Sequence record: LN881738.1
DNA: 41,318 nt
Reading direction: 5' to 3' (one strand)
Origin: Clostridium phage slur17
Positions within the stretch are counted from its first letter, which is position 1; the number at the start of each line of letters is the position of its first letter. The translations under genes and the position numbers were made by a program. Shown here in pieces: positions 879 through 37,901 of this stretch. Below the pieces are notes generated by a model. It worked only from the letters and a program-made list of their open reading frames with translations. It was not told the origin of the DNA and made no database searches.

Positions 879-2975
879 TTAAGCATAAACATAGTATTGT
901 ACTGTAATAAATCCTTCTGAAAAAAAATTCATTCCGAGCCAGTAGCCTATTGTTTGGCTTCCTGACATTTCGTAAGACACACCTCGCACAGATGCAGAAA
1001 GTTCCAATTGTGGATTTGTATCACTTTTTTTTGCTGTCGCTGATGTGCTGAAATAACTTAAACAGCTACCATTTGTTGATGTAGACCTTATTGCACAAGT
1101 TGCTTTAAAATTTTTACCTGCAAATTTTTTTGGTAAGTCTATTATGATTTTTGAATCTTTATAATCAAAGTATGTGTATCCACTTTCTTGAAGATAATAT
1201 GACTCTGTTACATCTGAACCGGTGTAGAATTTTGTATATAGCCCCGAGTCGGTCATTTTTGTAAATCCCTTCCCGCTTATAAGTTTCAATCCTTCATCAT
1301 CAATAAGAACATAAGGACTTACACTATTAAAAGCAATTTTAAAAGTATTTGGGTTAAAATGAACATCTCCAAAACTATCAATTTCCATTGTTTTGACTCC
1401 ATTATCATTTACGACTACCATTTCTCTAGCATTTATATACATGCCTTTTAGCTGTCCAAACCAACCTCTATCTAGCTTCAACTCCCCAATTAATGCATCT
1501 GCTATTGCTCCTTTTTCTATCCACATAGTTCCATCGTCGATTTTTGTAGTCTGTGCTTCTACTTGATTAGAGAACTCTGTAACATTTCCATGCGAGTTTA
1601 CTGCTCTTACTCTGAAATACCAAGTTTGAAAAGGTTCAGCTTGATGAACGTAAGCACTTGCTTGCCCTACAAAAATTCGATTTGTAAAATTAATTGTATC
1701 TGGTACAAAGTCTTTAATTTGAGACGCATAAACTTCATATTTGTAATAAGACTTATTTGTAAATGTCCATGTTAGATTGATAAAAGCGAATAACCCCTCT
1801 GCTGTCAAAGCTGGTGTATTCGGTAAAGTGTCTGGAAACTCTGAATCATCTACTTTGACATTATCAATAGCTTTTTTTACTGTTTCTATTTTATTTTCTA
1901 TATTATTAAACTTGTTATTTAAAAAGTCTAAATGATTTATTAAATCGCCAACTTCAATACTATAGTATTTTCGATTTATTGGGCTATAGTCTGTTTTAAC
2001 TACTCTAGCAGTTGCGTTAATGTTTAAATTAAAATCTCGTATTATCACTTCATCACCTAGATTGACTGTTTCTAGCATTTTGTAATCTTTATAATTTATA
2101 GTTGTAGATAAATCTACGAAGTTGACTTTGTATAAAACTTTTGGTAAATCAACTTGATTGTATTTAAAATAGTCTTTGCATTTTTCTCTTAATTCTTCTT
2201 CAACACTGACCTCATCAGAACTAAAATCTATAGCAACAATCTTTTGGGTAGCATATTTATTCATATTAGGACTAACAATGTATTTTTCTGTCAATGTAAT
2301 CATTTCATCTTCGTAGACCGCATAAGGATATATTTTTGTTACAATATCTTGTGTATCATACTCCGCTTCAAGCCCTGTTATATTTTTTTTATATGCAAGT
2401 AGCACATTTTTACTCTCACCTCTTTGATAATTTAAGAAAACATTAAAATTATCAAAGAAAAGTTTCGCAGTTGGTTCAAATTTTTGAATTAGAGAATTTT
2501 CGCCCTCGCAGATTGCGCTGTAAGGGCTTTGCATTTCAATATTAATAGTATTCCTTGCCTTGATGTCTGAATGTCCTCTAAATCTGTTCTGTTCCTCACA
2601 AGCACGAAAGACTCTTTCTAAAGCTTCTTCGCAAGTAATATCGTTCAATTCCAAACTTTCTATGAAATTATTAAGCAAATCATACTTAATGTGTTGCGCT
2701 TTTACATTAATATACCCACCTAGATTTTTTGATATATAATAAATTCTAAAAAGCTGGTCTTTGTAGTCGGGCGAAGTATCAGCTTTAATTAATCTATCTA
2801 CTTTTATTTCTTTAAATAAAAAAGAGTCTTCGTAGATAGTAAATTCTAACTCGAAAACTCCGCTTTCTTCCTCTCTAACATGGTCATTTATTACATTCGT
2901 AAGAACACCTAAACCTAAATGCCTAAAATCTGTTTCTTTTTCTTCATATAAAACTAATTTTCCTTTTTGAATAAT
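879..2975 (-). CDS. Tail-associated lysin / prophage tail endopeptidase-type protein (Tal) with an FN3-like central domain
   Basis: The track ORF 879..2678 continues in frame for 99 more codons (IIQKGKLVLYEEKETDFRHLGLGVLTNVINDHVREEESGVFELEFTIYEDS...), which is a typical Tal N-terminus. Strong SD GGAGGGAGGG at 2980-2989. There is no ATG/GTG/TTG in that stretch, so the start is probably ATT at 2975 or 2972. Confidence 0.8.
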   Translation of the reverse strand: MIQKGKLVLYEEKETDFRHLGLGVLTNVINDHVREEESGVFELEFTIYEDSFLFKEIKVDRLIKADTSPDYKDQLFRIYYISKNLGGYINVKAQHIKYDLLNNFIESLELNDITCEEALERVFRACEEQNRFRGHSDIKARNTINIEMQSPYSAICEGENSLIQKFEPTAKLFFDNFNVFLNYQRGESKNVLLAYKKNITGLEAEYDTQDIVTKIYPYAVYEDEMITLTEKYIVSPNMNKYATQKIVAIDFSSDEVSVEEELREKCKDYFKYNQVDLPKVLYKVNFVDLSTTINYKDYKMLETVNLGDEVIIRDFNLNINATARVVKTDYSPINRKYYSIEVGDLINHLDFLNNKFNNIENKIETVKKAIDNVKVDDSEFPDTLPNTPALTAEGLFAFINLTWTFTNKSYYKYEVYASQIKDFVPDTINFTNRIFVGQASAYVHQAEPFQTWYFRVRAVNSHGNVTEFSNQVEAQTTKIDDGTMWIEKGAIADALIGELKLDRGWFGQLKGMYINAREMVVVNDNGVKTMEIDSFGDVHFNPNTFKIAFNSVSPYVLIDDEGLKLISGKGFTKMTDSGLYTKFYTGSDVTESYYLQESGYTYFDYKDSKIIIDLPKKFAGKNFKATCAIRSTSTNGSCLSYFSTSATAKKSDTNPQLELSASVRGVSYEMSGSQTIGYWLGMNFFSEGFITVQYYVYA

Positions 2976-3007
2976 TAATCCCTCCCTCCAAATTTTAATT
3001 TAAAACT

Positions 3008-3742
3008 TTATAAAATATTCCATCTAGGATTTATTTTTATGCTTTTTATATCCCCTTCCCAGCTAATCTGATTTTCTCCTTCTTCAAGTATGGGAAAGTC
3101 ACTAAAAAGCTTATTATTTTCATTTACAATAATGTTATTTTCTTTGTTTATTCTATATACATTCATCTGTTCGCTATCTATTATTAAGTCGCTTAAAATT
3201 CCATTTTCTGCCACCCCTCTTAGCACTATGCTTTGAGTATTTATTTTTATACTTATGTCCCCTGCTCCTTCTATATAGAGAACAGGTTTTGACTCTCTAT
3301 AGAAATTTGTTATAGTAGCACTCTTTAGATTTAATACATTTAAACTTATAATTTCTTCTTCTGCGTATCTAAAAGGGTAGCAGTCGAATGTTAAAAGACA
3401 TGATGCAAAGTTTTTAAAATTTCTAGTTATATCTAGTTTATTGTTACAGCTTGCTAGATAATAAAAGTCACTATTACTTAAAAAAAGTTTTTTATATGAT
3501 ATATCGCCCTGTAGCCATTTTTTTATTTCTGTTGCAACTTCTTCTATATTACTTTGTCTTGCATCTATATCGCATTCTATTGTAAGCGTAAAATTTTCAA
3601 AACCTTTTTTTAGTAGTAAATCTCCATCTTTGCCTGGCACACTCACTCTTTCAACTTCCATCTGTGGAGCTGATAAGTCGTTTATATTGTATATTTTTAA
3701 ACCAAATTCTCTGCTGTCTCGACCGTTATAAACGAAAAACAT
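3008..3742 (-). CDS. Distal tail protein (Dit, siphovirus tail component family)
   Basis: MFFVYNGRDSREFGLKIYNINDLSAPQMEVERVSVPGKDGDLL is a typical Dit N-terminus, and the gene lies between TMP and Tal. ATG at 3742 follows GAGAGGAGGG; the track start at 3763 is probably too long. Confidence 0.8.
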   Translation of the reverse strand: MFFVYNGRDSREFGLKIYNINDLSAPQMEVERVSVPGKDGDLLLKKGFENFTLTIECDIDARQSNIEEVATEIKKWLQGDISYKKLFLSNSDFYYLASCNNKLDITRNFKNFASCLLTFDCYPFRYAEEEIISLNVLNLKSATITNFYRESKPVLYIEGAGDISIKINTQSIVLRGVAENGILSDLIIDSEQMNVYRINKENNIIVNENNKLFSDFPILEEGENQISWEGDIKSIKINPRWNIL

Positions 3743-3862
3743 AGCTTTATGCCCTCCTCTCATTTATTATTTTTTAGACATAACTCCGTTTTTGTAGTTA
3801 TATTTTTTACTATAGTCTTTTCAAAAAAGATAAAAGGAAATATAAAAAAGAAAAGGAACATT

Positions 3863-6800
3863 TTATAAAGCTCCTTTTCTTTTTGCTAAGAACAATATTT
3901 CATCAAAAAGATTTTCTATATCTTGTTGTCTATTATTTACAAAGTTTTCTATATTAAGTTTAATACCTGCTTGATTTTCATTAGCTTCATCAGCCTTATT
4001 ATTACTCATTATAGCTGTTTCTTTTCCAGCTTTAAAATCTGTACTTGCAACTATATTAGCTTGTATTTTAGACGTTTCAAAATTAACTGTAGCTTTTAAT
4101 TTACCTGTAAGTTCAGATATATTTTTCTCTATTTTTTCTTTCAAGCCTGGCGTTTCTACATCTATTCCAACGCCGACCCCTTTTACAAGATTTCTACCAA
4201 TTAAATCTCGCATGATTATGGAAGGTGAATGCACTCCAAAGCCGTCTCTAAATCCATCTATAACATTACTAGCAAAATCAAGGACTTGGTCTTTTAACCA
4301 GCCACCCATGCCCGTTATACCTTCCCATAAGCCTCTTACAACATCTTTCCCGATACTCATAATTTTACTAGGCAAATCTTTCAAAGCATCCTTAACAGCA
4401 TTTGCCATATTTTTTCCAGCTTCTCCAGCTTGTTTGACTAAGTTAGTCCCCCAGCTTATGACATTTGAAATGATATTGTCTAGCCATTCTCTAAATTTTC
4501 CTGGAAGCTGGCTAACAGTATTGTATATATTGTTAAAAAAGTTTTTCGCTGTTTCTAAAGCTTTTTTAGATAAATTAACTTCCCACTCCATGACTTTTTG
4601 CATTATATTAGTTAATTTTTCCCATATTTTGCCCGGAAGTTCTGAAAAGAATTTCATTATATTTTCTAAGAATTTGCTTCCTGTTTCTAATGCTTTTTGA
4701 ATTAGATTAGAACCCCATTCCGAAACTTTTCCCATGATATCTGTAAACTTTTCCCATAATTTTCCCGGAAGCTCCGAAATTGGAATTAATACATTGTCAA
4801 CAAATTGATTAAAAATATCTGTTGCCAATTGCTTTAAATTTTCGCCCCAGCCACTTATTGTTTCTACTACTGTATTAAACCATTCCGAAATTCTTTCGGG
4901 TAGCTCTGTAAAAAACTGTGTTATATTTTCCCAAATTGCACCAAAAAACTCTGAAACAGAAACCTTGAAATTTTCGCCCCAAGTTTGAATATTTTGCAAT
5001 ATGATACTAAAAAATTCCGAAATTTTTTCCGGAAGGCTTACAAACCATTCGACAATGCTATTTATTATTTCTGGTAATGTTTCTGTTGCCCAGGCGTACA
5101 GATTAGCTCCTAAATCAACGAAAAAACCAGCAATAGACCCGATTACAAAACCAATATTATATGGAATTTGTTTAAACCATTCGACAATATTATTTATTAT
5201 AGCTGGCATTGTCTCATTAAAGAAACTTGATATTTTTTCTCCTATTTTCCCACATTCTTCTTTTATCTTGTCGCCAATACCCGCAAACCATTTTGGTACT
5301 GTGCTAGTAAAAAAGTCTAAACCACTTTTTAATCCGCTTCCAATTGCATCTCCAATTTTTGACCCAGTCTCTTTGAACCAATTGCTAAGACCGCCGAAAA
5401 TCTCTACAGCTTTATCTTTTATACTTGAAAAACCTTGCTGTGCCTTATCTCCAAACTCTGTAAAAAAGTCTCCAGCTCCTGCAAATCCTTCACTTATTTT
5501 ATTTCCAAGACCACCAAAAAATCCACCTATATTTTCAATTCCTTCTTTGAATTTATCTTTTACTTTAGAGAAGAAATCACCAATAGAATTTTTTGCACTA
5601 GCTAGCCACTCATTTATATTTTTGTCTGTATCTCTTAGCCATTTTTCTATTCCACCAAAAAAACCACCAATGCCATTGAACCCTTTTTTTATACTTTCAG
5701 ATAATTTACTAGCTGAATCCCCAACTTTAGGGACTGTTCCTGTTACGAGTTCATCACTGACAAGTTCTAAGCCTTCAACAGAAGTTTTAACATCATCTAT
5801 GCCATCAGCATATTCTTCTAGTTCTCCAGCGTCCAGTTTGGCAGAACCAGAATCCAAAGAGGAACTTTTAGCAGATGAGTCTACATCCCCTCCACTTGCG
5901 CTAGAAGTATTAGCTTTTTCTTTTAGTTTCTCATATTCTTCTAACTTTTTCTTCAATCTATCAAGCTCTTTTTCTTGTGCTGGTATAATCTCTTTTAAGT
6001 TAATAGCTTCCTTTACAGCTTCCTGGATAGATTGCTTTTTAGAGTTAACTCCATTTAACAAACTATCTGCTAAACTCTGCCCTGCATCCTGCCAATGCGG
6101 GTTATATTCACTTAAAAGTTTTATAATTTCTTCTGAATTTTTTTGTAAAAGTAGCCTTCTCGCTTCATTTTGAATATTTGTCTCTTCTAAAAGTTCACTA
6201 AAATATTTTTCAATTTCTTCTTTTTGACTAGCATTAGACTCTTTTATCAATTCAAGTTTTTTACTTTCTGCTTCTTTTTGATTGTCGTACTCTTCTTTGT
6301 ACTGCTCTTTTTTGTTACTAGCTTCTGTTTTTATATTTTCAATCTGTTCTTTTAATCTGTTTTTTTCTTGTTGCCTTTGTTCATCTAATAATTTCTTCTG
6401 TCTATCTGATTGTGCTTCTGATATTTCTTTTTGTATTTTTTCTCGTTCTTTTTGATTTTTAGCTGTTGCTAGTTTCCTGTCAAGGTCGCTTATTTTTTCA
6501 TTGTACGCTTTCTCTTCTTCTGCTTTTTGTTCTTCTTCAATTTGCTTGTCTATGGCGTCAATTTGTTCTTGTATAGCATTAGTTTTCTCATTTGTTTCTG
6601 TATCTAAATACTTTAATTTCTCATTGTATTCTTTTTCATAGACCTTTAATCTATCATTTGATGCCTTTTCCTCAACTTTTAGTCTTTCATCAAGCGCTTT
6701 TATTTGTATATCTTTTTGACTTTCATATTGATTTTTTAATGCTGTAGTTATAGCCTCGCAAATTTTTTCAAATTTACTCTTGTTGGTCTCAAGATTTTTT

Positions 6801-9196: not shown

Positions 9197-9236
9197 AAAA
9201 AAGCACCTACTTTTTAAAAAAGTAAGTGCTTTTTAT
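9197..9236 (-). terminator. Hairpin with flanking A/T runs between the DUF4236 gene and the TMP start
   Basis: agcacctact (9202-9211) pairs with agtaagtgct (9221-9230) with one mismatch. A T-run follows on the minus strand. Confidence 0.55.
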
Positions 9237-26489: not shown

Positions 26490-26555
26490 TTTCCAGCCTC
26501 CTTATTTATTTTTTACTTTTTTTAATTGGTTTAGCGTAGCCGTCAAAGTACGCTT

Positions 26556-26738
26556 TTAACAAATAATTTGTTCTATTTCTTTTACTGCTTCATTTAGTTT
26601 ATTAACATCTAAAATATCATTCTCAACAATGTTTTCTATTGTCTTTGCATTTAAAATACAGTCAACTATTCTTTGCTTTTCCTCACTCATATCTAAGTAC
26701 AAAATTGCATTTCTTAAAATTCTTTCTTCTCTAGTCAT
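26556..26738 (-). CDS. First gene of the early operon (hypothetical, 60 aa)
   Basis: Divergent from the repressor gene. No obvious HTH. Confidence 0.5.
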   Translation of the reverse strand: MTREERILRNAILYLDMSEEKQRIVDCILNAKTIENIVENDILDVNKLNEAVKEIEQIIC

Positions 26739-26776
26739 AGAAACAACCTCCTGACTCCTATTGCGAATATATTTAT

Positions 26777-26805
26777 ATTATAGTGCGTAATAAGGGGCAA
26801 GTCAA
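26777..26805 (-). promoter_or_regulatory. Early (lytic) promoter, TTGACT-17-TATAAT
   Basis: On the minus strand the -35 is the reverse complement of 26800-26805 and the -10 is the reverse complement of 26777-26782, with an exact 17-nt spacer. Confidence 0.6.
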
Positions 26806-26858
26806 TAACTTTTACTAATTTATTTTCGCAAGACTACGCCCCAATGCGTTTTTTTGCG

Positions 26859-26887
26859 TTGACTTACGGGCAACTTTACTGTAAAAT
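26859..26887 (+). promoter_or_regulatory. Repressor promoter, TTGACT-17-TAAAAT
   Basis: -35 at 26859-26864 and -10 at 26882-26887. It is back-to-back with the early promoter. TTGCGAA (26761-26767) and TTCGCAA (26825-26831) form an inverted repeat nearby. Confidence 0.6.
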
Positions 26888-26910
26888 TAAGCTATGAAAG
26901 GAGTTTTAAA

Positions 26911-27264
26911 ATGAATACTAGAATTAGAGACTTGCGAATTGCAGAGGGGCTATCTCAAATCGAATTTGGGAACAAGCTAGGAATGACTAGACACGAAATT
27001 TACAATCTTGAAAGTGGAAGAACACGAATAAAAGAAAGTGATTTAAAATTAATAACTTCAACATTTAAGGTAAACGAAAAATGGCTAAAAACAGGCGAAG
27101 GCGATATGTATACTTTTTCAAACAATAACTTAATAACAGCAGAAGTCTTATGCGCAATAGATAAGAATGAACGTCTTGCTAAAGCAATGTTAAAATTTAG
27201 CAAGTTAAATGACAAAGAATTAGAGGCAATGGAAAAGCTACTAGAATTATTTCAAAAAGAATAA
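26911..27264 (+). CDS. cI-like XRE-family repressor
   Basis: IRDLRIAEGLSQIEFGNKLGMTRHEIYNLESGRTRI is a classic XRE HTH, and the gene is divergent from the early operon. Confidence 0.85.
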   Translation: MNTRIRDLRIAEGLSQIEFGNKLGMTRHEIYNLESGRTRIKESDLKLITSTFKVNEKWLKTGEGDMYTFSNNNLITAEVLCAIDKNERLAKAMLKFSKLNDKELEAMEKLLELFQKE

Positions 27265-27308
27265 AAGGCTATCATCTTAAATTTGATAGTCTTTTCATAT
27301 GTACATAT

Positions 27309-27413
27309 TTATTTTTTAGTTTTTTGCTTTAAATACAGATAAATAATCTCTAATATATCCTTATCCCCTACTTTGTCCAACATTTCTTTTATTTCTTCTT
27401 TCAACCAAATCAT
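27309..27413 (-). CDS. Possible 34-aa protein
   Basis: MIWLKEEIKEMLDKVGDKDILEIIYLYLKQKTKK lies downstream of a consensus promoter. The SD-like AGGGGG directly abuts the ATG, so translation is uncertain. Confidence 0.35.
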   Translation of the reverse strand: MIWLKEEIKEMLDKVGDKDILEIIYLYLKQKTKK

Positions 27414-27476
27414 CCCCCTATATGCAAGTAGAATAATACATTCTTAAAATTTGTAAAAAAATAACTTACAATTTTA

Positions 27477-27505
27477 ATTATACCCCCTTTTGTTCGATAT
27501 TACAA
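27477..27505 (-). promoter_or_regulatory. Consensus-like promoter, TTGTAA-17-TATAAT
   Basis: The -10 is the reverse complement of 27477-27482 and the -35 is the reverse complement of 27500-27505, with a 17-nt spacer. Confidence 0.55.
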
Positions 27506-27694
27506 GAGCACATGTACGATTTTTTGTCGCAATTAAACATTTATACTACAATAATAGTACCTTTTATCAAATTTTGCTAGTGGAAAATAATTCCAATTCA
27601 AAATACATTGAATTTTCTTACATTAGGAAAGTTCAGGGTCAATTTTTTTAACCTTGCGATTTTCCATTTGGTATAAGTTTTATATTTTCACATC

Positions 27695-27760
27695 AAAAAG
27701 TCACGCAAGTAGGAATATATATATATATATATATATTAAATCCTACTTGCGTGACTTTTT
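27695..27760. terminator. Palindrome A: 15-bp stem around an (AT)n loop with A/T-run flanks (probable bidirectional terminator)
   Basis: gtcacgcaagtagga (27700-27714) pairs with tcctacttgcgtgac (27741-27755). The loop is (AT)11 followed by taaa. Confidence 0.6.
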
Positions 27761-27764
27761 GTTC

Positions 27765-27908
27765 TTAGATGCAAATTTCTAGTTGCTCTACTAACTCTAT
27801 TTCTTTTTCAATTTTAAATCCTATGTCAAATTCATTGTTTAAAAATGCCTTTTCAATTTCATCTAATTTACTCAATAACCTCTGTTTTCTAGTTTTTATA
27901 GCATTTCT
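27765..27908 (-). pseudogene. ORF remnant ending ...EIELVEQLEICI* with no canonical start
   Basis: 47-codon open frame with no ATG or GTG; the only TTG has an SD just 3 nt away. Its 3' end is homologous to the 21-codon mini-ORF at 28020-28085. Confidence 0.3.
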
Positions 27909-27957
27909 TTAAATATTGTATGCTAATTATGTTTATTTTAATTGATGACTCATTATC

Positions 27958-28015
27958 AAAAAGTCAGTCGACCTGGAATATATATATATATATATTCCAG
28001 GTCGACTGACTTTTT
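27958..28015. terminator. Palindrome B: 16-bp stem around a (TA)8 loop. Same flanks as palindrome A but a different stem sequence
   Basis: gtcagtcgacctggaa pairs with ttccaggtcgactgac in a perfect palindrome. Left flank atcaaaaagtca and right flank tgactttttgtt.ttagatgcaaatttcta are shared with A. Confidence 0.6.
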
Positions 28016-28077
28016 GTTTTTAGATGCAAATTTCTAATTGTTCTTTTGATTCTGTTTCTTTTTGATTAAATACAATT

Positions 28078-28425
28078 TTAATCAACTACAATTAATTCTG
28101 CCCCAGCTGGTAAATTAATTTTTATAAGTTCTAGTAAAAGTTGTTTTGAAAGCTCCTCCCTTAAATCCTGTTCTTGATATTGAAGTTCAAAAAAGTACTT
28201 ATCAACTTCTTCATCATAATAAAAATTATACTCATGATATGCCGAATTTTCTTCTAACAATTCTCTGTATCCAAGATTAATGCCTATAGGTATAAATTTA
28301 TCTTTATTTTTTATATCTTTTATGAAATTATCATAGTCATTAAAAGCTCGTATTAAAAGCTCTGAAAACTCATAACTCACACTCACTATATATTTATTTT
28401 TAACTTTAATATCTAATTCAAACAT
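28078..28425 (-). CDS. Hypothetical acidic protein (115 aa), co-operonic with the helicase
   Basis: AAGGAG SD. Lies 46 nt downstream of the helicase stop. No motif recognised. Confidence 0.6.
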   Translation of the reverse strand: MFELDIKVKNKYIVSVSYEFSELLIRAFNDYDNFIKDIKNKDKFIPIGINLGYRELLEENSAYHEYNFYYDEEVDKYFFELQYQEQDLREELSKQLLLELIKINLPAGAELIVVD

Positions 28426-28471
28426 CCTTTTTATCTCCTTATGTAAATATTTTTGAAATTTATTTTTGTCT

Positions 28472-30637
28472 CTACATAAAACCTTTTAATAACAATAGTT
28501 TTTCATCTTCATCTAAAGAGTTCAACATCCTGTCTTTTGTATATTTTATAGCATTTTCTAAACTCTTATCTTTTTCGTCTAATTCTAAATCTTTTTTTAT
28601 GTCATCTACAGTTATATATCTTTTTATATTATTAAGTTGTATTCGTTTTTTTTCAAACTGGCATGATATAGGATTTATATTTTTATAAAAAAACATAGTT
28701 TCTATATCATGCCAGTTACTATATTTTTTCTTTTCTATAATAAAAATTCCATTCAGTGTAACGCTTAGCTTTTTAGTTGTTAAATCCCAGTTTTCCCCTA
28801 AAATTGTTCTTAAGTCGTTACTTAACTCTTGTAAATGCAATTCTTTATAAGATGTTCCAATTCCAAACAATTTATCTATATAATTAAATACTGTAACTTG
28901 AATAAGTTCATCATTTAAAAACTCTGGATATTCCTCTTTTAATTCTCTATATATTAAAGTATTTATTTTATTAAATATTACCCCACGTCTTTTGTTTGCT
29001 GTATTCGCTAGTTTCCAAGCAAGGTCTAAGTCGAACTTATTATCTAGTACATAATTAGAATATAGTTCTAACATGCTATTACTTTTACTTTTCTTTACCA
29101 AATTATGTATGTCATACGCTCTGTAAGCCTCTAAGCACCCTTTTGAACTTAGTTTCATATCATTATGATACTGCATTAGTGAAAAGCTCTTAGAATCGCT
29201 TTTAATCTGTCTATAACCTACTAGAATTTCTTTATGTTCTTTTAAAATTTCTCTTGTTGCATCTTTAATTTCTTTTACAACTTTCTTGTACTCTTTTAAC
29301 TCTTTTTCATTTGTGCCAACTTCTTTAGCATCAGTTATATTAACATTTTCAAAATATTCTTCTAATAACACTTTAAAACTTTGAATTGTTCTTGTATTGT
29401 AATAGTTGCTGTAAACTTGACTTTTTATATATAATTTATCTACTTTATAGCAATTATCTTTTGTACAGTAGTACACATTTGAGTCTATGCGAATTGGCGT
29501 TGCATTTATTCCAACTGTTTCAAACTGTAACATGTGTTTAGATACTTTGTTATAAGCATCTTTTAAGATAGTTGCTTTTTCTATATTTTTGTTAACTAGC
29601 CATTCAATTTTGTATACATTGCACTCTTCTTCATATTTATTGAATATGTGTACATTTACTTTTTTTAAGTTTCTAAACCTTGCAACATACTGTTTTATAG
29701 CTCCAACATCTTTTATATTAACAATAATTATATCTGTGATATCTTTGTTGTTTATATTTACACCAGCTAGGATTGTTGTTGTATTTAAAAGCGTTTCATA
29801 GTCTTTCATGTCTGAATTTTTAACTATTCTATTGTACAATTCATTCTCTTCTTTTCCATCTGCATATACAACTCCAACTTTTTTGTTCACTGAATCTCTT
29901 ATAAATTCTAATGTTGATATATCATTCATCAACATGGCGCTGTTTTTAGATTTATTTATTATGTTAATCATTTCAGTAAAATTTTTATTGTCAAAGTCGT
30001 TGTACAATTTAACTTTATATTCTGTTTTTTGCTTTTGAGTGTACTCTATTATGTAGTCATATATTTCAAATTCAAGTTTTGTTGGTGTTGCTGTAATGTC
30101 TATTCTTCCTTTGCACTTAGACATTATATTATTTAGATTTTTTATTGCTTTTCCTCGATATGCATCTGTATAAGTTTGATGTATTTCATCAACTACAATT
30201 ATGTATTCACTTAAGTCTGTGTTTATAAGTTTTTCAGTTTTATCCCAAGTCATTACAACTAAGTTACCATTTTTAAATGCTTCGCTAACAGGTATTTTGT
30301 CATATGCTCCTGGTATATCATACTCGTGCATTGCCTGCTCCACATTTGAAGCATTTGGAAGTATGAATAACGCTTTTGTTTTTAATTTTTTTAATGTATT
30401 TATAAAGCTATAACTTTTTCCTGCTCCTGTCGGTGCAATAAACAGGGTTTTCCCGCCATTTATCGCGTTGGCTATAGCCGTTTTAATTCCTAGTTTTTTT
30501 TCGTTTATATATTTTTTTATTTCATATGTTTCATGTCTATTGAAATTTGAATAATTTTCTTTTTCATGCTCTGCTCTTTCAGCGCTACATTCTTCTAAAA
30601 ACATCTTATCTATATTATTTTTATTAACATTCTTCAT
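28472..30637 (-). CDS. Superfamily-2 DExH helicase (721 aa) with an uncharacterised ~370-aa C-terminal region
   Basis: Motif I APTGAGKS, Ia FILPNASNVEQ, II VVDEIHQ, III TATP, V TTILAGVNI, VI QYVARFRN. ATG at 30637 follows GGAGGG; the track start at 30658 is probably too long. Confidence 0.85.
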   Translation of the reverse strand: MKNVNKNNIDKMFLEECSAERAEHEKENYSNFNRHETYEIKKYINEKKLGIKTAIANAINGGKTLFIAPTGAGKSYSFINTLKKLKTKALFILPNASNVEQAMHEYDIPGAYDKIPVSEAFKNGNLVVMTWDKTEKLINTDLSEYIIVVDEIHQTYTDAYRGKAIKNLNNIMSKCKGRIDITATPTKLEFEIYDYIIEYTQKQKTEYKVKLYNDFDNKNFTEMINIINKSKNSAMLMNDISTLEFIRDSVNKKVGVVYADGKEENELYNRIVKNSDMKDYETLLNTTTILAGVNINNKDITDIIIVNIKDVGAIKQYVARFRNLKKVNVHIFNKYEEECNVYKIEWLVNKNIEKATILKDAYNKVSKHMLQFETVGINATPIRIDSNVYYCTKDNCYKVDKLYIKSQVYSNYYNTRTIQSFKVLLEEYFENVNITDAKEVGTNEKELKEYKKVVKEIKDATREILKEHKEILVGYRQIKSDSKSFSLMQYHNDMKLSSKGCLEAYRAYDIHNLVKKSKSNSMLELYSNYVLDNKFDLDLAWKLANTANKRRGVIFNKINTLIYRELKEEYPEFLNDELIQVTVFNYIDKLFGIGTSYKELHLQELSNDLRTILGENWDLTTKKLSVTLNGIFIIEKKKYSNWHDIETMFFYKNINPISCQFEKKRIQLNNIKRYITVDDIKKDLELDEKDKSLENAIKYTKDRMLNSLDEDEKLLLLKGFM

Positions 30638-30776
30638 CTTTATCCCTCCAATTTCCACCTGGAGGCTGACGCTCTTTTTTTGATTTTTTGTAATAATTTT
30701 ACTATTAAAATTACCTTAAAACCATTGTGTTTTTCTACACTTTGTCTTATAATATAAATATAAGTATAGAAAAACA

Positions 30777-31006: not shown

Positions 31007-31040
31007 AAAAGACTTAGTATATAAACTAAGTCTTTTTTTA
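31007..31040 (+). terminator. 12-bp hairpin plus T-run
   Basis: aaaagacttagt pairs with actaagtctttt around the loop atataa, followed by TTTTA. Confidence 0.45.
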
Positions 31041-32585: not shown

Positions 32586-32600
32586 AATGAGGTGGAGAAA

Positions 32601-33410
32601 ATGGCTAATACAAAGCTACTTACGTACTTTAACATAAAAGGAGGTATCTATAAGACAACAACGTCTATAATGACAGCGTATGAACTTGCGAAAGATAAAG
32701 ATAAAAAAATACTCTTATGGGACTTAGATGTGCAAGCAAATCTAACACAATATGTTTATGAAATAAATCATAATGATAATACTACATTAGATATTTTAAA
32801 AGGGATTAGTGCTAATGATGCAATAGTCAAGTCACCTAATGAAAATTACATTAATGTAGACTTAATTCCTTCTGACATACAAATGGCTAGATTTGAACAA
32901 GAGCTATCACCTTTACCAGCCAGAGAAAAATTTTTAGCTCGCTGGTACATGCAAAACTTTAATACTTTGAGTGAGTATGATTATATTATCTGTGATTTAT
33001 CTCCACGCTACGATTTGACAGCTAAAAATGTGCTTTTCTTAGCAGATAGTATAATTATTCCAATTCAAGATAAAAACATTTCTTCTTTAAGAGGAGCAGA
33101 ATTATTTAAACAACTCTGGGATGTTGATAGAACCTATTTTGATAAGGAGGATAATATAAAAAGTACTATTTTAGTTGGATTTGAGAAGAAGAAAACTCAA
33201 ATTAGCGATACTTTCGATTCTTATCTGGAAGGGTTTAACGATATGAGAGATATTATGTTAGATACATACATTAGAAAAAATGAGTTTATAGAGAAGGCAC
33301 TATTAAAAAAACTATCTCTAACAGATTATACAAAAATAACTAAAGAGCATTTCAGCAGACAGGAATTTACTAATATGTTAGAAGAATTGAAAAGAAAAGG
33401 AGTGTTATAG
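32601..33410 (+). CDS. parA: ParA-family partition ATPase (deviant Walker A)
   Basis: KGGIYKTT Walker A, LLWDLDVQANLT, and the CDLSP motif. ATG at 32601 follows GAGGTGG. Confidence 0.85.
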   Translation: MANTKLLTYFNIKGGIYKTTTSIMTAYELAKDKDKKILLWDLDVQANLTQYVYEINHNDNTTLDILKGISANDAIVKSPNENYINVDLIPSDIQMARFEQELSPLPAREKFLARWYMQNFNTLSEYDYIICDLSPRYDLTAKNVLFLADSIIIPIQDKNISSLRGAELFKQLWDVDRTYFDKEDNIKSTILVGFEKKKTQISDTFDSYLEGFNDMRDIMLDTYIRKNEFIEKALLKKLSLTDYTKITKEHFSRQEFTNMLEELKRKGVL

Positions 33411-33743
33411 ATGCCAAGTTTCAACAGAGACCTTTTAGTTGATAAAGAAAAACCGATTTTGAAAAATGGAACAATCGTACAAAATGATTCTACAACTACA
33501 GACAATAAGACATTAAACATATATAATCTAGTTAATAAGAAAAGTAAAAAAGTGACTATGAGTGCAACGCTTGATGAGGAGCTTGTAAACAAATTAAAAT
33601 CTTTTTCTATTGATATGAACAGCGACGTTAGTAAATTATTAAGTGATATACTAACTCAAATTTTATCTGATGTCACTATAAAAGAAGAGAATTTAAATAT
33701 ATACAATGAGAGAAATAGAAGAAATAAGACTAAGAAAAAGTAA
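33411..33743 (+). CDS. Partition adaptor, probable ribbon-helix-helix centromere-binding protein (ParG/ParR-like role)
   Basis: TAGATG junction with parA. KKVTMSATLDEELVNKLKSFSIDMNSDVSKLLSDIL fits a beta-alpha-alpha RHH pattern. Confidence 0.6.
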   Translation: MPSFNRDLLVDKEKPILKNGTIVQNDSTTTDNKTLNIYNLVNKKSKKVTMSATLDEELVNKLKSFSIDMNSDVSKLLSDILTQILSDVTIKEENLNIYNERNRRNKTKKK

Positions 33744-33744
33744 A

Positions 33745-33860
33745 TAATATTATATTTATATTGTTTAGATATTACTTAAATATTGTATATATAATATTTA
33801 AGTAATATTTTAATATTATTATTACAATATATTAATATTGTTTAAATAATATGTTTTAAC
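33745..33860. repeat. Second centromere-like palindrome cluster downstream of the par genes
   Basis: 40-bp palindrome atattacttaaatattgtatatataatatttaagtaatat at about 33770-33809, plus acaatatattaatattgt. Confidence 0.5.
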
Positions 33861-34173: not shown

Positions 34174-34208
34174 AAAAAACAGTGTATTTATTGAATACAC
34201 TGTTTTTA
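34174..34208. terminator. Bidirectional terminator
   Basis: acagtgtatt (34179-34188) pairs with aatacactgt (34194-34203), flanked by A5 and T5. Confidence 0.6.
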
Positions 34209-37816: not shown

Positions 37817-37901
37817 AACTTTCCTCCTAATTTTGATTATTTATTTTTTATATAAAAAAAGATTAGACTATTAATCTAATCTTTTAGATGACTTATAAAC
37901 A

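What the first reader, a model, noticed from the sequence alone, without database searches (positions are those of the whole stretch)
27680..28085. Two palindromes with conserved flanks and (TA)n loops but completely different, compensating stems at cassette boundaries
Palindrome A is at 27695-27760 and palindrome B at 27958-28015. They share the left flank ATCAAAAAGTCA, a (TA)n centre, and about 65 nt of right flank (TGACTTTTTGTTnTTAGATGCAAATTTCTAnTTG...). Their 12-nt inner stem arms are unrelated in sequence (CGCAAGTAGGA versus GTCGACCTGGAA), yet each pairs perfectly with its own partner.

The conserved right flank encodes the same C-terminus (…EQLEICI*) twice on the minus strand. One copy is a 47-codon remnant without a start codon. 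The other is a 21-codon stub overlapping the end of the 115-aa gene. This pattern suggests gene cassettes have been swapped in upstream of a conserved 3'-end plus hairpin unit.

The simplest reading is duplicated bidirectional terminators. However, covariation in the stems with conserved outer boxes is also the signature of structure-specific recombination sites, as in the attC logic of integrons. A (TA)n cruciform is another possibility. The element encodes two small recombinases.
Basis: seen in the sequence. Interest (0 to 1): 0.6.

Follow-up and report, generated by a model that had tools for sequence, protein, structure and literature searches.

The report
Stacked helicase-gene terminator hairpins in phage
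The two palindromes are real, but they are most likely two-way transcription stop signals that end a C. difficile phage's helicase gene, one current and one left behind with a dead piece of an older helicase gene, not integron-like recombination sites.

Summary
The window is C. difficile phage-plasmid CDSH1 (phiCD38-2 group). Palindromes A (27694-27761) and B (27957-28016) share A5G/CT5 bases, a (TA)n centre and about 57 nt of right flank. Their inner stems differ but are each perfectly complementary.

The conserved flank (…EQLEICI*) is the natural C-terminus of the DEAD/DEAH helicase in relatives. The 47-codon remnant is 80% identical to that tail. The repeated unit is therefore "helicase 3' end plus its terminator", stacked when the replication module was replaced.

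Relatives carry 0-4 such hairpins at this one locus, with at least 12 stem types and strong covariation (96.9% paired, 13 of 20 pairs changed on both sides). Only helicase-tail relics, plus one unidentified ~120-nt spacer in one phage, lie between hairpins. Copy loss used two different crossover points inside the flank, which indicates homologous rather than site-specific recombination. There is no integron integrase, no attC boxes and no dispersal.

The (TA)n centre is the only thing that differs among six otherwise identical genomes.

Best reading: bidirectional intrinsic terminators. Termination itself is inferred, not shown. Interest is modest. A second covarying palindrome inside the helicase gene (28655-28718) deserves its own look.

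The parts
27694..27761 (.). Palindrome A (stem type S1: CAAAAAGTCACGCAAGTAGGA ... TCCTACTTGCGTGACTTTTTG). It is the distal hairpin, directly after the stop codon of the helicase-tail relic.
   Evidence: RNA fold -39.1 (+ strand) and -41.5 (- strand) kcal/mol, z about -11. The same stem is the only hairpin in phiCD111 and JD033.
27715..27740 (.). Centre of A: (AT)11 at 27715-27736 plus the TAAA asymmetry at 27737-27740. This is a hypermutable tract.
   Evidence: Read. Run length and the asymmetry are the only differences among six otherwise identical genomes.
27957..28016 (.). Palindrome B (stem type S2: CAAAAAGTCAGTCGACCTGGA ... TCCAGGTCGACTGACTTTTTG). It is a perfect 60-nt palindrome, proximal to the live helicase-gp36 genes.
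   Evidence: Flagged terminator-like on both strands. -45.1 kcal/mol on both strands. An S2-like hairpin is the single hairpin directly after the helicase gene in phiCD08011.
27978..27995 (.). Centre of B: (AT)9.
   Evidence: Read. The alternating A/T run is 18 to 28 nt long in near-identical phages.
27765..27908 (-). A 47-codon relic of a helicase C-terminus plus its stop. It contains the annotated 36-aa 'gp37' ORF at 27765-27875. Its last ~15 codons (27762-27808) form the conserved right flank of A.
   Evidence: Translation. 80% identity (E 1e-22) to the last 49 residues of the helicase of phage Hain-Saunders-2022a. 27840-27917 is 71% identical to the window helicase's own 3' end (D3).
28020..28085 (-). 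A 21-codon stub, ...KETESKEQLEICI*. It is a second helicase-tail relic, forms the conserved right flank of B (28017-28063) and overlaps the end of the 115-aa gene.
   Evidence: In phiCDHM13 the homologue of the 115-aa gene reads in frame into this tail (...CEQLEICV*, read).
28078..28425 (-). The 115-aa gene (gp36 of phiCD38-2). Function is unknown. It is present or absent between the helicase gene and the hairpin in relatives.
   Evidence: No Pfam or NCBIfam match. Absent in L014, L017, L062, JD032 and phiCD08011.
28472..30658 (-). DEAD/DEAH (ResIII) helicase gene whose transcript runs into hairpin B. This allele ends ...LLLLKGFM* and lacks the EQLEICI tail.
   Evidence: Pfam hits. It aligns with the L062 helicase to residue 727 of 728 (L062 residue 638 of 660), so it lacks the last 22 residues of the L062 protein. 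Reported as an early gene in CDHS-1 RNA-seq (PMC8619979).

Best explanation
The palindromes belong to a lineage-specific family of bidirectional Rho-independent terminators. They close the helicase (plus or minus gp36) transcription unit of C. difficile Leicestervirus and Sherbrookevirus phages, where that unit converges on the immunity region.

Each has an A-tract, a G+C-rich lower stem, an A/T-rich apex made of (TA)n, and a T-tract, so either strand can terminate at it.

The 'conserved right flank' is the last ~15-20 codons of the helicase gene. In the window's ancestry the replication module was replaced at least twice by recombination with imprecise joints in the 3' end of the helicase gene. 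Each replacement left the previous '3' end plus terminator' downstream as a relic: hairpin A with the 47-codon remnant, and the 21-codon stub in front of hairpin B.

Stems differ because the stacked units come from diverged alleles of a non-coding hairpin constrained only to pair. The flanks stay similar because they were coding sequence and A/T tracts.

Copy number then changes by ordinary homologous recombination between the repeated flanks. The (TA)n centre changes by slippage and small deletions or self-templated correction.

Shown here: the anatomy, relic homology, covariation, variable copy number, two crossover points, a hypermutable centre and confinement to one locus. Inferred: actual termination on both strands, and the order and mechanism of the replacement events.
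For: Position:
- The relic's stop codon lies 3 nt from the A-tract of hairpin A, and the stub's stop lies 3 nt from that of hairpin B.
- Nearly all genes are on the minus strand and the cI-like gene on the plus strand, so the site separates converging units.

Terminator features:
- A5G...CT5 tracts and G+C-rich stems are present, and B is called terminator-like on both strands.
- dG is -39 to -45 kcal/mol.
- Other palindromes in the window have the same AAAAAG-stem-CTTTTT build (9198-9234, 31007-31036, 34175-34207, 37857-37885).

Functional replacement: JD032 and pCD5401_3 lack the (TA)n hairpin. In JD032 an ordinary GTAGGGT...ACCCTAC terminator is fused to the same T-tract and tail sequence. 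In pCD5401_3 an ordinary terminator of the same type sits at the same place.

Relic origin: the EQLEICI* tail is the helicase's own C-terminus in L062. The remnant is 80% identical to it. The window's helicase lacks it.

Family:
- Relatives have 0, 1, 2, 3 or 4 hairpins at this locus.
- There are at least 12 stem types.
- 96.9% of cells are paired and 13 of 20 pairs changed on both sides. The covariation score is 0.72, against 0.19 for shuffles (0 of 500 reach it) and at most 0.14 for slid controls.

Plus-strand use: where the upstream GTAGGGT terminator of the conserved plus-strand unit has decayed (window, L062, L017), a (TA)n hairpin follows it.

Recombination: phiCD111 and JD033 join an A stem to a B-type flank at two different points.

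Decay: relics decay where they are presumably redundant (L014 hairpin 2 has three mismatches; L020 keeps only half a hairpin).
Against: - No transcript 3'-end data were available, so termination is inferred.
- The hairpins are atypical terminators. Stems are 28-40 bp, and the apex is always (TA)5-14, which termination does not require.
- G.U pairs are almost absent (3 of 260 cells). That fits use on both strands, but equally fits a DNA-level constraint.
- In the L062 array about 120 nt of non-coding left flank is 90-95% identical between units, while the inner stems are about 60-70% identical. There the stems changed faster than neighbouring non-coding DNA, which simple stacking of alleles does not fully explain.
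- A second palindrome inside the helicase ORF shows the same all-Watson-Crick covariation. This hints that DNA-level processes or protein recognition shape palindromes in this replicon.
Confidence: 0.65

Rival explanations
1. The element functions at the DNA level. The (TA)n-centred palindromes extrude as cruciforms or replication hairpins and serve the replicon. They could be an origin or unwinding element, an incompatibility or specificity site for the helicase, or a programmed fragile site that promotes module exchange. Termination would be secondary.
For: - They lie immediately 3' of the replication helicase gene.
- B is a perfect palindrome through its centre, and (TA)n is a classic cruciform-prone tract (own knowledge).
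- Covariation is almost entirely Watson-Crick.
- The centre is the only variable site among six identical genomes, with imperfect and perfect states interchanging.
- Rearrangement end points cluster at hairpin bases.
- A second covarying palindrome lies in the helicase ORF.
Against: - JD032, phiCD506 and pCD5401_3 carry an 84.5-88%-identical helicase gene (DNA identity) and no (TA)n hairpin. phiCD111 and JD033 lack B with a 98.6-99% identical helicase region. The hairpins are therefore dispensable for replication.
- Copy number (0-4) and spacing vary freely.
- Variable (TA)n length argues against binding by a protein dimer on duplex DNA.
- No GC-skew feature appears beyond the change in gene orientation.
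Confidence: 0.12
2. The hairpin is an RNA processing or stability element rather than a terminator. The ~30-bp perfect RNA duplex would be an RNase III substrate or a 3' protective stem-loop that sets helicase mRNA levels, in the manner of lambda sib retroregulation.
For: The perfect duplexes are long enough for RNase III (RNase III length preference is own knowledge). The position is directly 3' of the ORF. Covariation preserves pairing.
Against: - U-tracts on both sides and A/T symmetry are the terminator signature.
- An ordinary short terminator substitutes at the same place in JD032.
- G.U pairs, which RNA-only selection tolerates, are nearly absent.
Confidence: 0.1
3. They are structure-specific (attC-like) recombination sites. 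One of the phage's small recombinases would use them to capture or excise gene cassettes.
For: The frame is conserved and the stem variable and compensated. Unit number varies between genomes. A tyrosine and a serine recombinase are encoded 6-7 kb away.
Against: - Between hairpins there are only helicase-tail relics (plus one unidentified ~120-nt spacer in L062), and no diverse ORFs.
- Only A5G/CT5 is universal, and the GTCA box is replaced by GCC in several types.
- There is no GTTRRRY box, and B has no extrahelical bases.
- Two different crossover points lie within the flank.
- The 202-aa recombinase is a catalytic-domain-only Xer-like protein, far below the integron-integrase cut-offs (39 vs 265 bits and 24 vs 435 bits).
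- ParA next to a resolvase-type enzyme fits plasmid multimer resolution (inference).
Confidence: 0.03
4. They are mobile foldback (MITE- or REP-like) elements that inserted next to a pre-existing terminator and spread.
For: JD032 looks like an 'empty site': the GTAGGGT terminator abuts the same T-tract. The whole element is a pair of terminal inverted repeats.
Against: - Every copy found lies at this one locus. There are two in the window.
- One C. difficile contig was the only palindromic hit among 185,579 species genomes.
- Twelve IMG/VR stretches matched: eleven carry the same flanks, and one (L056) showed no palindrome of this kind.
- There is no target-site duplication and no transposase.
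- L020 shows that deletions into a hairpin can generate 'empty-like' states.
Confidence: 0.03

Closest known systems
Bidirectional Rho-independent (intrinsic) terminators between convergent genes
   Same: They share the A-tract, G+C-rich stem and T-tract, a position a few nucleotides after a stop codon, a location between converging units, and compensatory stem evolution without sequence conservation. Other terminator-like palindromes of this phage have the same AAAAAG...CTTTTT frame.
   Different: The stem is extended to 28-40 bp by an always-present (TA)5-14 apex. Up to four copies are stacked with gene relics between them. G.U pairs are almost absent.
PeSL promoter-terminator motifs of T4-type phages (PMC2839356, PMC4122927) and the 'boundary/linker sequences' of lambdoid phage modules
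   Same: A conserved regulatory stem-loop motif sits at a module boundary and is repeated. Homologous recombination between copies adds, deletes or replaces neighbouring genes (one search shows two such joints here).
   Different: Here there is one locus rather than many. The repeated homology is mainly the 3' coding end of one gene. No promoter is part of the motif. The intervening DNA is relic sequence, not novel ORFs.
Integron attC sites
   Same: Both are imperfect or perfect palindromes with a conserved frame and variable, compensated inner stems, arranged in arrays of variable length.
   Different: There are no R/L box consensus, no extrahelical bases, no IntI, no attI/Pc and no diverse cassettes. 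Crossovers are not at a fixed point.
Quasipalindrome template-switch hotspots and SbcCD-sensitive AT-rich palindromes (PMC7202029; the classical E. coli work is cited from my own knowledge)
   Same: The palindrome centre mutates far faster than its surroundings. Imperfect tops become perfect in otherwise identical genomes. Deletion end points fall in or at the hairpins.
   Different: The mechanism was not demonstrated here. A simple 4-nt deletion plus slippage would give the same products. Relic copies of the other palindrome (pal2) do decay, so self-correction is not automatic.
SaPI-type replication origins placed directly 3' of the rep or helicase gene (own knowledge)
   Same: An AT-rich, repeat-containing element sits immediately downstream of a replication helicase gene, with lineage-specific sequence.
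   Different: The (TA)n hairpins are dispensable: relatives with the same helicase type have none or only one. They have no iteron organisation. The coding-embedded palindrome pal2 is the better origin candidate.

Membership tests
Intrinsic (Rho-independent) bidirectional terminator | A stable G+C-containing stem-loop | tested here: met
   -39 to -45 kcal/mol on both strands, z -11 to -14. 9 G-C pairs were counted in B.
Intrinsic (Rho-independent) bidirectional terminator | A U-tract directly 3' of the stem on each transcribed strand (an A-tract on the other side) | tested here: met
   CAAAAAG...CTTTTTG in every family member. B is called on both strands by the scan. A was missed by the scan only because of its loop rule.
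Intrinsic (Rho-independent) bidirectional terminator | Position at the end of a transcription unit or between convergent units | tested here: met
   In hairpin-bearing relatives the stop codon of the helicase, or of the gp36 homologue, or of their relics, lies a few nt from the A-tract. The cI-like gene converges from the other side.
Intrinsic (Rho-independent) bidirectional terminator | A short loop of 3-8 nt and a stem of typical length | tested here: inconclusive
   The predicted loop is 4 nt, but only because the (UA)n apex pairs with itself. The total stem of 28-30 bp is well above typical.
Intrinsic (Rho-independent) bidirectional terminator | Transcript 3' ends map to the U-tract in vivo or in vitro | not testable with these tools
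   No Term-seq or 3'-end data were found for these phages. The CDHS-1 RNA-seq paper gives gene-level expression only.
Integron attC site | R''/L'' and L'/R' boxes with the GTTRRRY / RYYYAAC consensus | tested here: not met
   The outer boxes are AAAAAG(TCA or CC) / (TGA or GG)CTTTTT. The sequence after the stem is GTTCTTA or GTTTTTA, which is not GTTRRRY.
Integron attC site | Extrahelical bases and an asymmetric fold that mark the recombined strand | tested here: not met
   B is a perfect palindrome. A's only asymmetry is a 4-nt A/T bulge at the apex, which comes and goes between identical genomes.
Integron attC site | An associated integron integrase (IntI) | tested here: not met
   The 202-aa tyrosine recombinase matches only the catalytic domain. 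It scores 39.3 bits on TIGR02249 (cut-off 265) and 24 bits on NF011946 (cut-off 435).
Integron attC site | Each site closes a cassette carrying a different ORF, and exchange occurs at a fixed point | tested here: not met
   The only identifiable sequence between hairpins is helicase-tail relics. There are two different crossover intervals, 27751-27762 and 27763-27781.
MITE / REP-like dispersed palindromic element | Many copies at unrelated loci, with target-site duplications | tested here: not met
   One locus only. No duplication is seen at the junctions. The test is limited: only one C. difficile genome is in the species collection.
Protelomerase (telRL-type) target | A protelomerase gene and a linear hairpin-ended prophage | tested here: not met
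   Among the 20 window proteins scanned against Pfam, none gave a protelomerase match; the scan did not cover every ORF. Related plasmid records are circular. Two or more sites per genome, or none, is incompatible with that role.
Module-boundary recombination motif (PeSL-like / linker sequence) | Repeated conserved motif copies flank variable DNA, and recombinant joints lie inside the motif | tested here: met
   phiCD111 and JD033/L015 are A-stem/B-flank chimeras with different joints. The helicase alleles on one side are only 57% identical, while the tail and hairpin frame is 82-93% identical.

The most novel reading that the evidence does not exclude
The (TA)n-centred palindromes are more than passive terminators. 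They would be DNA-level, hairpin- or cruciform-forming elements that correct themselves towards symmetry. Their breakage and repair would drive replacement of the replication module at the helicase/immunity boundary.

Together with the covarying palindrome embedded in the helicase ORF (28655-28718), they could be diversifying specificity or incompatibility determinants of this phage-plasmid replicon family.
Probability: 0.15. Interest if true: 0.6.

Novelty: new member of a known kind. Interest (0 to 1): 0.33.

Why it matters
The result gives a worked example of how phage mosaicism leaves a readable record. Each replacement of the replication module stacks the old gene end and its terminator behind the new one, so the hairpin array acts as a history of exchanges.

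It also corrects annotation. 'gp37' (CDS in phiCD38-2 and phiCD146) is a helicase-tail relic, not an independent gene.

It warns that compensated stems inside a conserved frame are not by themselves evidence for attC-like sites.

On the practical side, the (TA)n centres are the fastest-changing sites in phiCD38-2-type phage-plasmids. They could serve as fine-scale typing markers, and they will trouble assembly and cloning.

If the DNA-level reading were true, the locus would become a tractable system for palindrome-driven module exchange in a Gram-positive phage-plasmid.

Tried and rejected
- **Rfam:** a permissive-threshold search of 26500-28600 gave only sub-threshold microRNA-like hairpin matches, which are chance.
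- **Metagenome pattern scan:** it returned mainly unrelated sequences, including 120-nt perfect palindromes with TA centres in other assemblies. It added no relatives.
- **Species-genome scan:** only C. difficile gave a palindromic hit, so there is no spread across species.
- **Natural-sequence MAFFT alignment of the hairpins:** it placed gaps asymmetrically and was not used for pair counts. I re-aligned the outer 20 nt of each arm with the centre collapsed to TATATATA. The collapsed centre is my construct, and index shifts between GTCA- and GCC-type stems mean that columns are not strictly homologous, although the pairs are.
- **GC skew:** it shows nothing at the locus beyond gene orientation.
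- **gp36:** it has no family match. It is not the published AcrIB2, which lies downstream of the lysis genes (PMC10732046).
- **Protelomerase, origin and MITE readings:** rejected as explained under the rival explanations.
- **phiCD38-2 lysogen RNA-seq paper (PMC4309704):** not held in the library.
- **Plus-strand small RNA candidate:** alignment folding showed high sequence conservation but little covariation.
- **First scripts:** the first scripts for the flank-identity table and the pal2 scan failed on trivial errors and were rerun.
Full report
**Identity and observation**

The window is a C. difficile phage-plasmid of the phiCD38-2 group. Positions 26500-29500 are 100% identical to phage CDSH1 and 99.5% identical to phiCD38-2, phiCD146 and AR1075-1.

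Both palindromes are present as described.
- A is at 27694-27761. It has 20 perfect outer pairs, an (AT)11 centre and a 4-nt TAAA asymmetry.
- B is at 27957-28016 and is a perfect 60-nt palindrome with an (AT)9 centre.

The frame AAAAAGTCA...TGACTTTTT occurs twice in the window, against 0.00 expected by chance. Predicted folds are -39 to -45 kcal/mol as RNA on either strand (z -11 to -14) and -28 to -31 kcal/mol as DNA.

Homology between the two units starts exactly at the hairpin base (ATCAAAAAG) on the left. On the right it runs about 57 nt. The first 45 nt of that flank are 37/45 identical, while the arms are 8/14 identical. Rfam has nothing above threshold here.

**Context**

Almost all genes are on the minus strand.
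- The DEAD/DEAH-ResIII helicase (28472-30658) and the 115-aa gene (28078-28425) are transcribed leftward into B.
- Next come a short open stretch and A.
- Then comes about 280 nt of conserved non-coding DNA, a 34-aa ORF, and the plus-strand HTH repressor-like gene (26911-27264) with its own terminator.

The hairpins therefore sit where the helicase unit converges on the immunity region. ParA lies at 32592-33410, divergent from the helicase. A resolvase and a 202-aa tyrosine recombinase lie 6-7 kb away.

**What the conserved flank is**

In phage Hain-Saunders-2022a (L062) the helicase ORF itself ends ...LDEIEKAFLNNKFDIGFKIEKEKEAESTEQLEICI*, directly in front of a hairpin. L014 and phiCD08011 appear to do the same, by reading the sequence.

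The window's 47-codon open stretch is 80% identical to those last 49 residues (E 1e-22). The window's own helicase aligns with the L062 protein up to its penultimate residue and then stops (...LLLLKGFM*), so it lacks the tail.

The annotated 'gp37' is therefore the dead 3' end of an earlier helicase allele. The 21-codon stub before B is a second such relic. In phiCDHM13 the homologue of the 115-aa gene reads in frame into the same tail (...CEQLEICV*). The repeated unit is 'helicase 3' end plus its hairpin'.

**The family**

I collected the locus from GenBank phages, PLSDB plasmids and IMG/VR.

| Hairpins at the locus | Genomes |
|---|---|
| 0 | JD032, phiCD506, pCD5401_3 |
| 1 | phiCD111, JD033, phiCDHM13, phiMMP04, phiCD08011, several plasmids |
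| 2 | window group, L017 |
| 3 | L062, about 235-nt period |
| 4 | L014, 90-130-nt period |

At least twelve stem types exist, each complementary to its own partner. On 13 types, 96.9% of cells pair and 13 of 20 pairs changed on both sides, in 72 cells. The covariation score is 0.72, against 0.19 for shuffles (0 of 500 reach it) and at most 0.14 for slid controls. Only three G.U pairs occur among 260 cells.

Only A5G/CT5 is universal. The GTCA/TGAC box is GCC/GGC in several types.

The stems look modular (bottom, middle, top) in reticulate combinations. For example, GTCA-GTCG occurs with top AGTAGGAAT in L062 and with top ACCTGGAAT in window B. GTCA-ACGG occurs with AGTAGGAAT and with GTCTGA. 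That pattern is what nested exchange of the contiguous central segment between hairpins would give. This is an inference from a small sample.

The order of top types is the same in the L014 and L062 arrays, apart from one extra unit in L014, so the array is old.

**Cassettes?**

The only identifiable sequence between hairpins is helicase-tail relics of various lengths. In L062 there is also a repeated ~120-nt spacer that I could not identify.

What does vary is the module upstream:
- The helicase alleles are only 57% identical in protein.
- The 115-aa gene is present or absent.

The boundary frame is meanwhile 82-93% identical. This is module replacement with imprecise joints, not cassette capture.

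**How copy number changes**

phiCD111 carries the A stem, the A-type first flank SNP and then B-type flank. JD033 and L015 carry the A stem with an entirely B-type flank. These are two independent joints, in 27763-27781 and 27751-27762, inside the repeated flank. That is the signature of homologous recombination or slippage between direct repeats, not of a site-specific enzyme.

L020 retains only the right half of one hairpin. In pCD5401_3 and in plasmid NZ_CP082869 the helicase 3' end is tandemly amplified: 321 nt in at least 4.4 copies, and 496 nt in at least 5.1 copies. The whole 3' end of the helicase gene is a rearrangement hotspot.

**The centre**

Six genomes have no substitution at all in the roughly 300 aligned flanking positions. 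They differ only in (TA)n length and in whether the apex carries the TTAAAT asymmetry.
- A is asymmetric in five genomes and perfect in phiCD146.
- B is perfect in four genomes and asymmetric in pCd23_2 and phiCD146.

The centre is therefore far more mutable than its surroundings, and imperfect tops become perfect. This fits slippage plus either a 4-nt deletion or quasipalindrome template switching (PMC7202029). The data cannot separate the two.

**Why terminators**

- The A/T tracts, G+C-rich lower stem and post-stop position are the terminator signature, and B is called on both strands.
- Other palindromes of this phage have the same build.
- Phages without a (TA)n hairpin have an ordinary terminator at the same place. 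In JD032, cGTAGGGT...ACCCTACg is fused to the very same T-tract and tail sequence.
- A strongly conserved plus-strand promoter (TTGTCG-17-TACAAT, 27524-27552) precedes about 100 nt of conserved sequence ending at that GTAGGGT terminator. Where the terminator has decayed (window, L062, L017), a (TA)n hairpin follows. This gives a reason for Watson-Crick pairing on both strands.
- The helicase is an early gene in CDHS-1 infection (PMC8619979).

Termination itself is not shown.

**What does not fit neatly**

- A (TA)n apex is present in every member, and the stems are 28-40 bp. Termination requires neither.
- In L062 the stems diverged more than adjacent non-coding flank.
- A second palindrome inside the helicase ORF (28655-28718) has an invariant A/T-rich core and arms that differ between phages yet stay complementary. 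12 of 16 pairs changed on both sides, with no one-sided changes and a score of 0.77 against 0.18 for shuffles. This holds even though the arms are coding and change the protein.
- Relic copies of that palindrome are imperfect. This shows that palindromes here are not kept perfect automatically, and it supports selection on the intact ones.

These points keep a DNA-level role alive as a minority reading.

**Rejected readings**

- **attC-like:** no boxes, no extrahelical bases, no IntI (39 vs 265 bits), no diverse cassettes and no fixed crossover.
- **MITE-like:** one locus only. The limit on this test is that the species collection holds one C. difficile genome.
- **Protelomerase site:** no such gene among the proteins scanned, circular replicons, and a variable number of sites.
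- **Essential origin:** relatives with the same helicase type have no hairpin or only one.

**Verdict**

The most likely identity is a stack of bidirectional intrinsic terminators with helicase-gene relics, at a module boundary of a mosaic phage-plasmid. This is a new member of a known kind with some unusual features. Interest is modest.

Noticed in passing
window 28655-28718 (arms 28656-28684 and 28689-28717), inside the helicase ORF: A second palindrome family ('pal2'). An invariant A/T-rich core TAGGATTnATATTTTTATAAAAAAAnATAnnTTCTA (encoding ..FFYKNINP..) is flanked by 11-14-nt arms. The arms differ between phages but stay complementary, although they are coding and change the protein. 95.3% of cells pair, 12 of 16 pairs changed on both sides, and none changed on one side. 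It is absent from the L062/L014/phiCD08011 helicase clade. It is a candidate origin or initiator site.
   Followed up: partly
window 27524-27552 (promoter-like) and about 27558-27660, plus strand: A T-run plus TTGTCG-17-TACAAT is nearly invariant in 8 phages. It is followed by about 100 nt of highly conserved non-coding sequence ending at a GTAGGGT...ACCCTAC terminator, which has decayed in the window. This is a candidate small RNA. It has no Rfam match and little covariation. A back-to-back minus-strand promoter-like site at 27505-27477 precedes the 34-aa ORF at 27309-27413.
   Followed up: partly
L066 (pCD5401_3) 1821-3228; L061 (NZ_CP082869.1) 2630-5164: Near-perfect tandem amplification of the helicase 3' end, including pal2. 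There are at least 4.4 copies of a 321-nt unit (99% matches) and at least 5.1 copies of a 496-nt unit (98% matches). Both arrays run to the end of the fetched stretch. It was not checked whether this is genuine amplification or an assembly effect.
   Followed up: partly
L009 (JD032) about 2700-2800; L010 (phiCD506) about 2937; L017 about 3615-3890; L057 about 2793: Phages whose helicase ends ...GFM* carry, right after the stop, a relic that starts at a degenerate pal2 copy and ends in the EQLEI(C/Y)I* tail. Relic stacking therefore also occurs without (TA)n hairpins.
   Followed up: partly
L020 9721-9739 (C. difficile CD160 contig): A half-hairpin: only the right arm CAGACCCGTTGACTTTTTG of an S11-type palindrome remains, joined directly to the GTAGGGT terminator region.
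   Followed up: no
L004 (phiCDHM13) about 2285-2320: The homologue of the 115-aa gene ends ...INCEQLEICV*. It has been fused in frame to the last codons of the helicase tail, 15 nt from the hairpin.
   Followed up: no
L064 (phiCD08011) 1833-1899: An S2-like hairpin in another phage genus. It has two arm mismatches and an interrupted TA run (…ATATATACATATT…), directly after the helicase stop.
   Followed up: no
window 33767-33810: A 44-nt A/T-rich palindrome AGATATTACTTAAATATTGTATATATAATATTTAAGTAATATTT lies immediately after the ParA gene (32592-33410) and a 110-aa ORF (33411-33743). It is a possible partition site.
   Followed up: no
They could be foldback assembly artefacts or real long palindromes. 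They share no flank homology with the phage locus.
   Followed up: no
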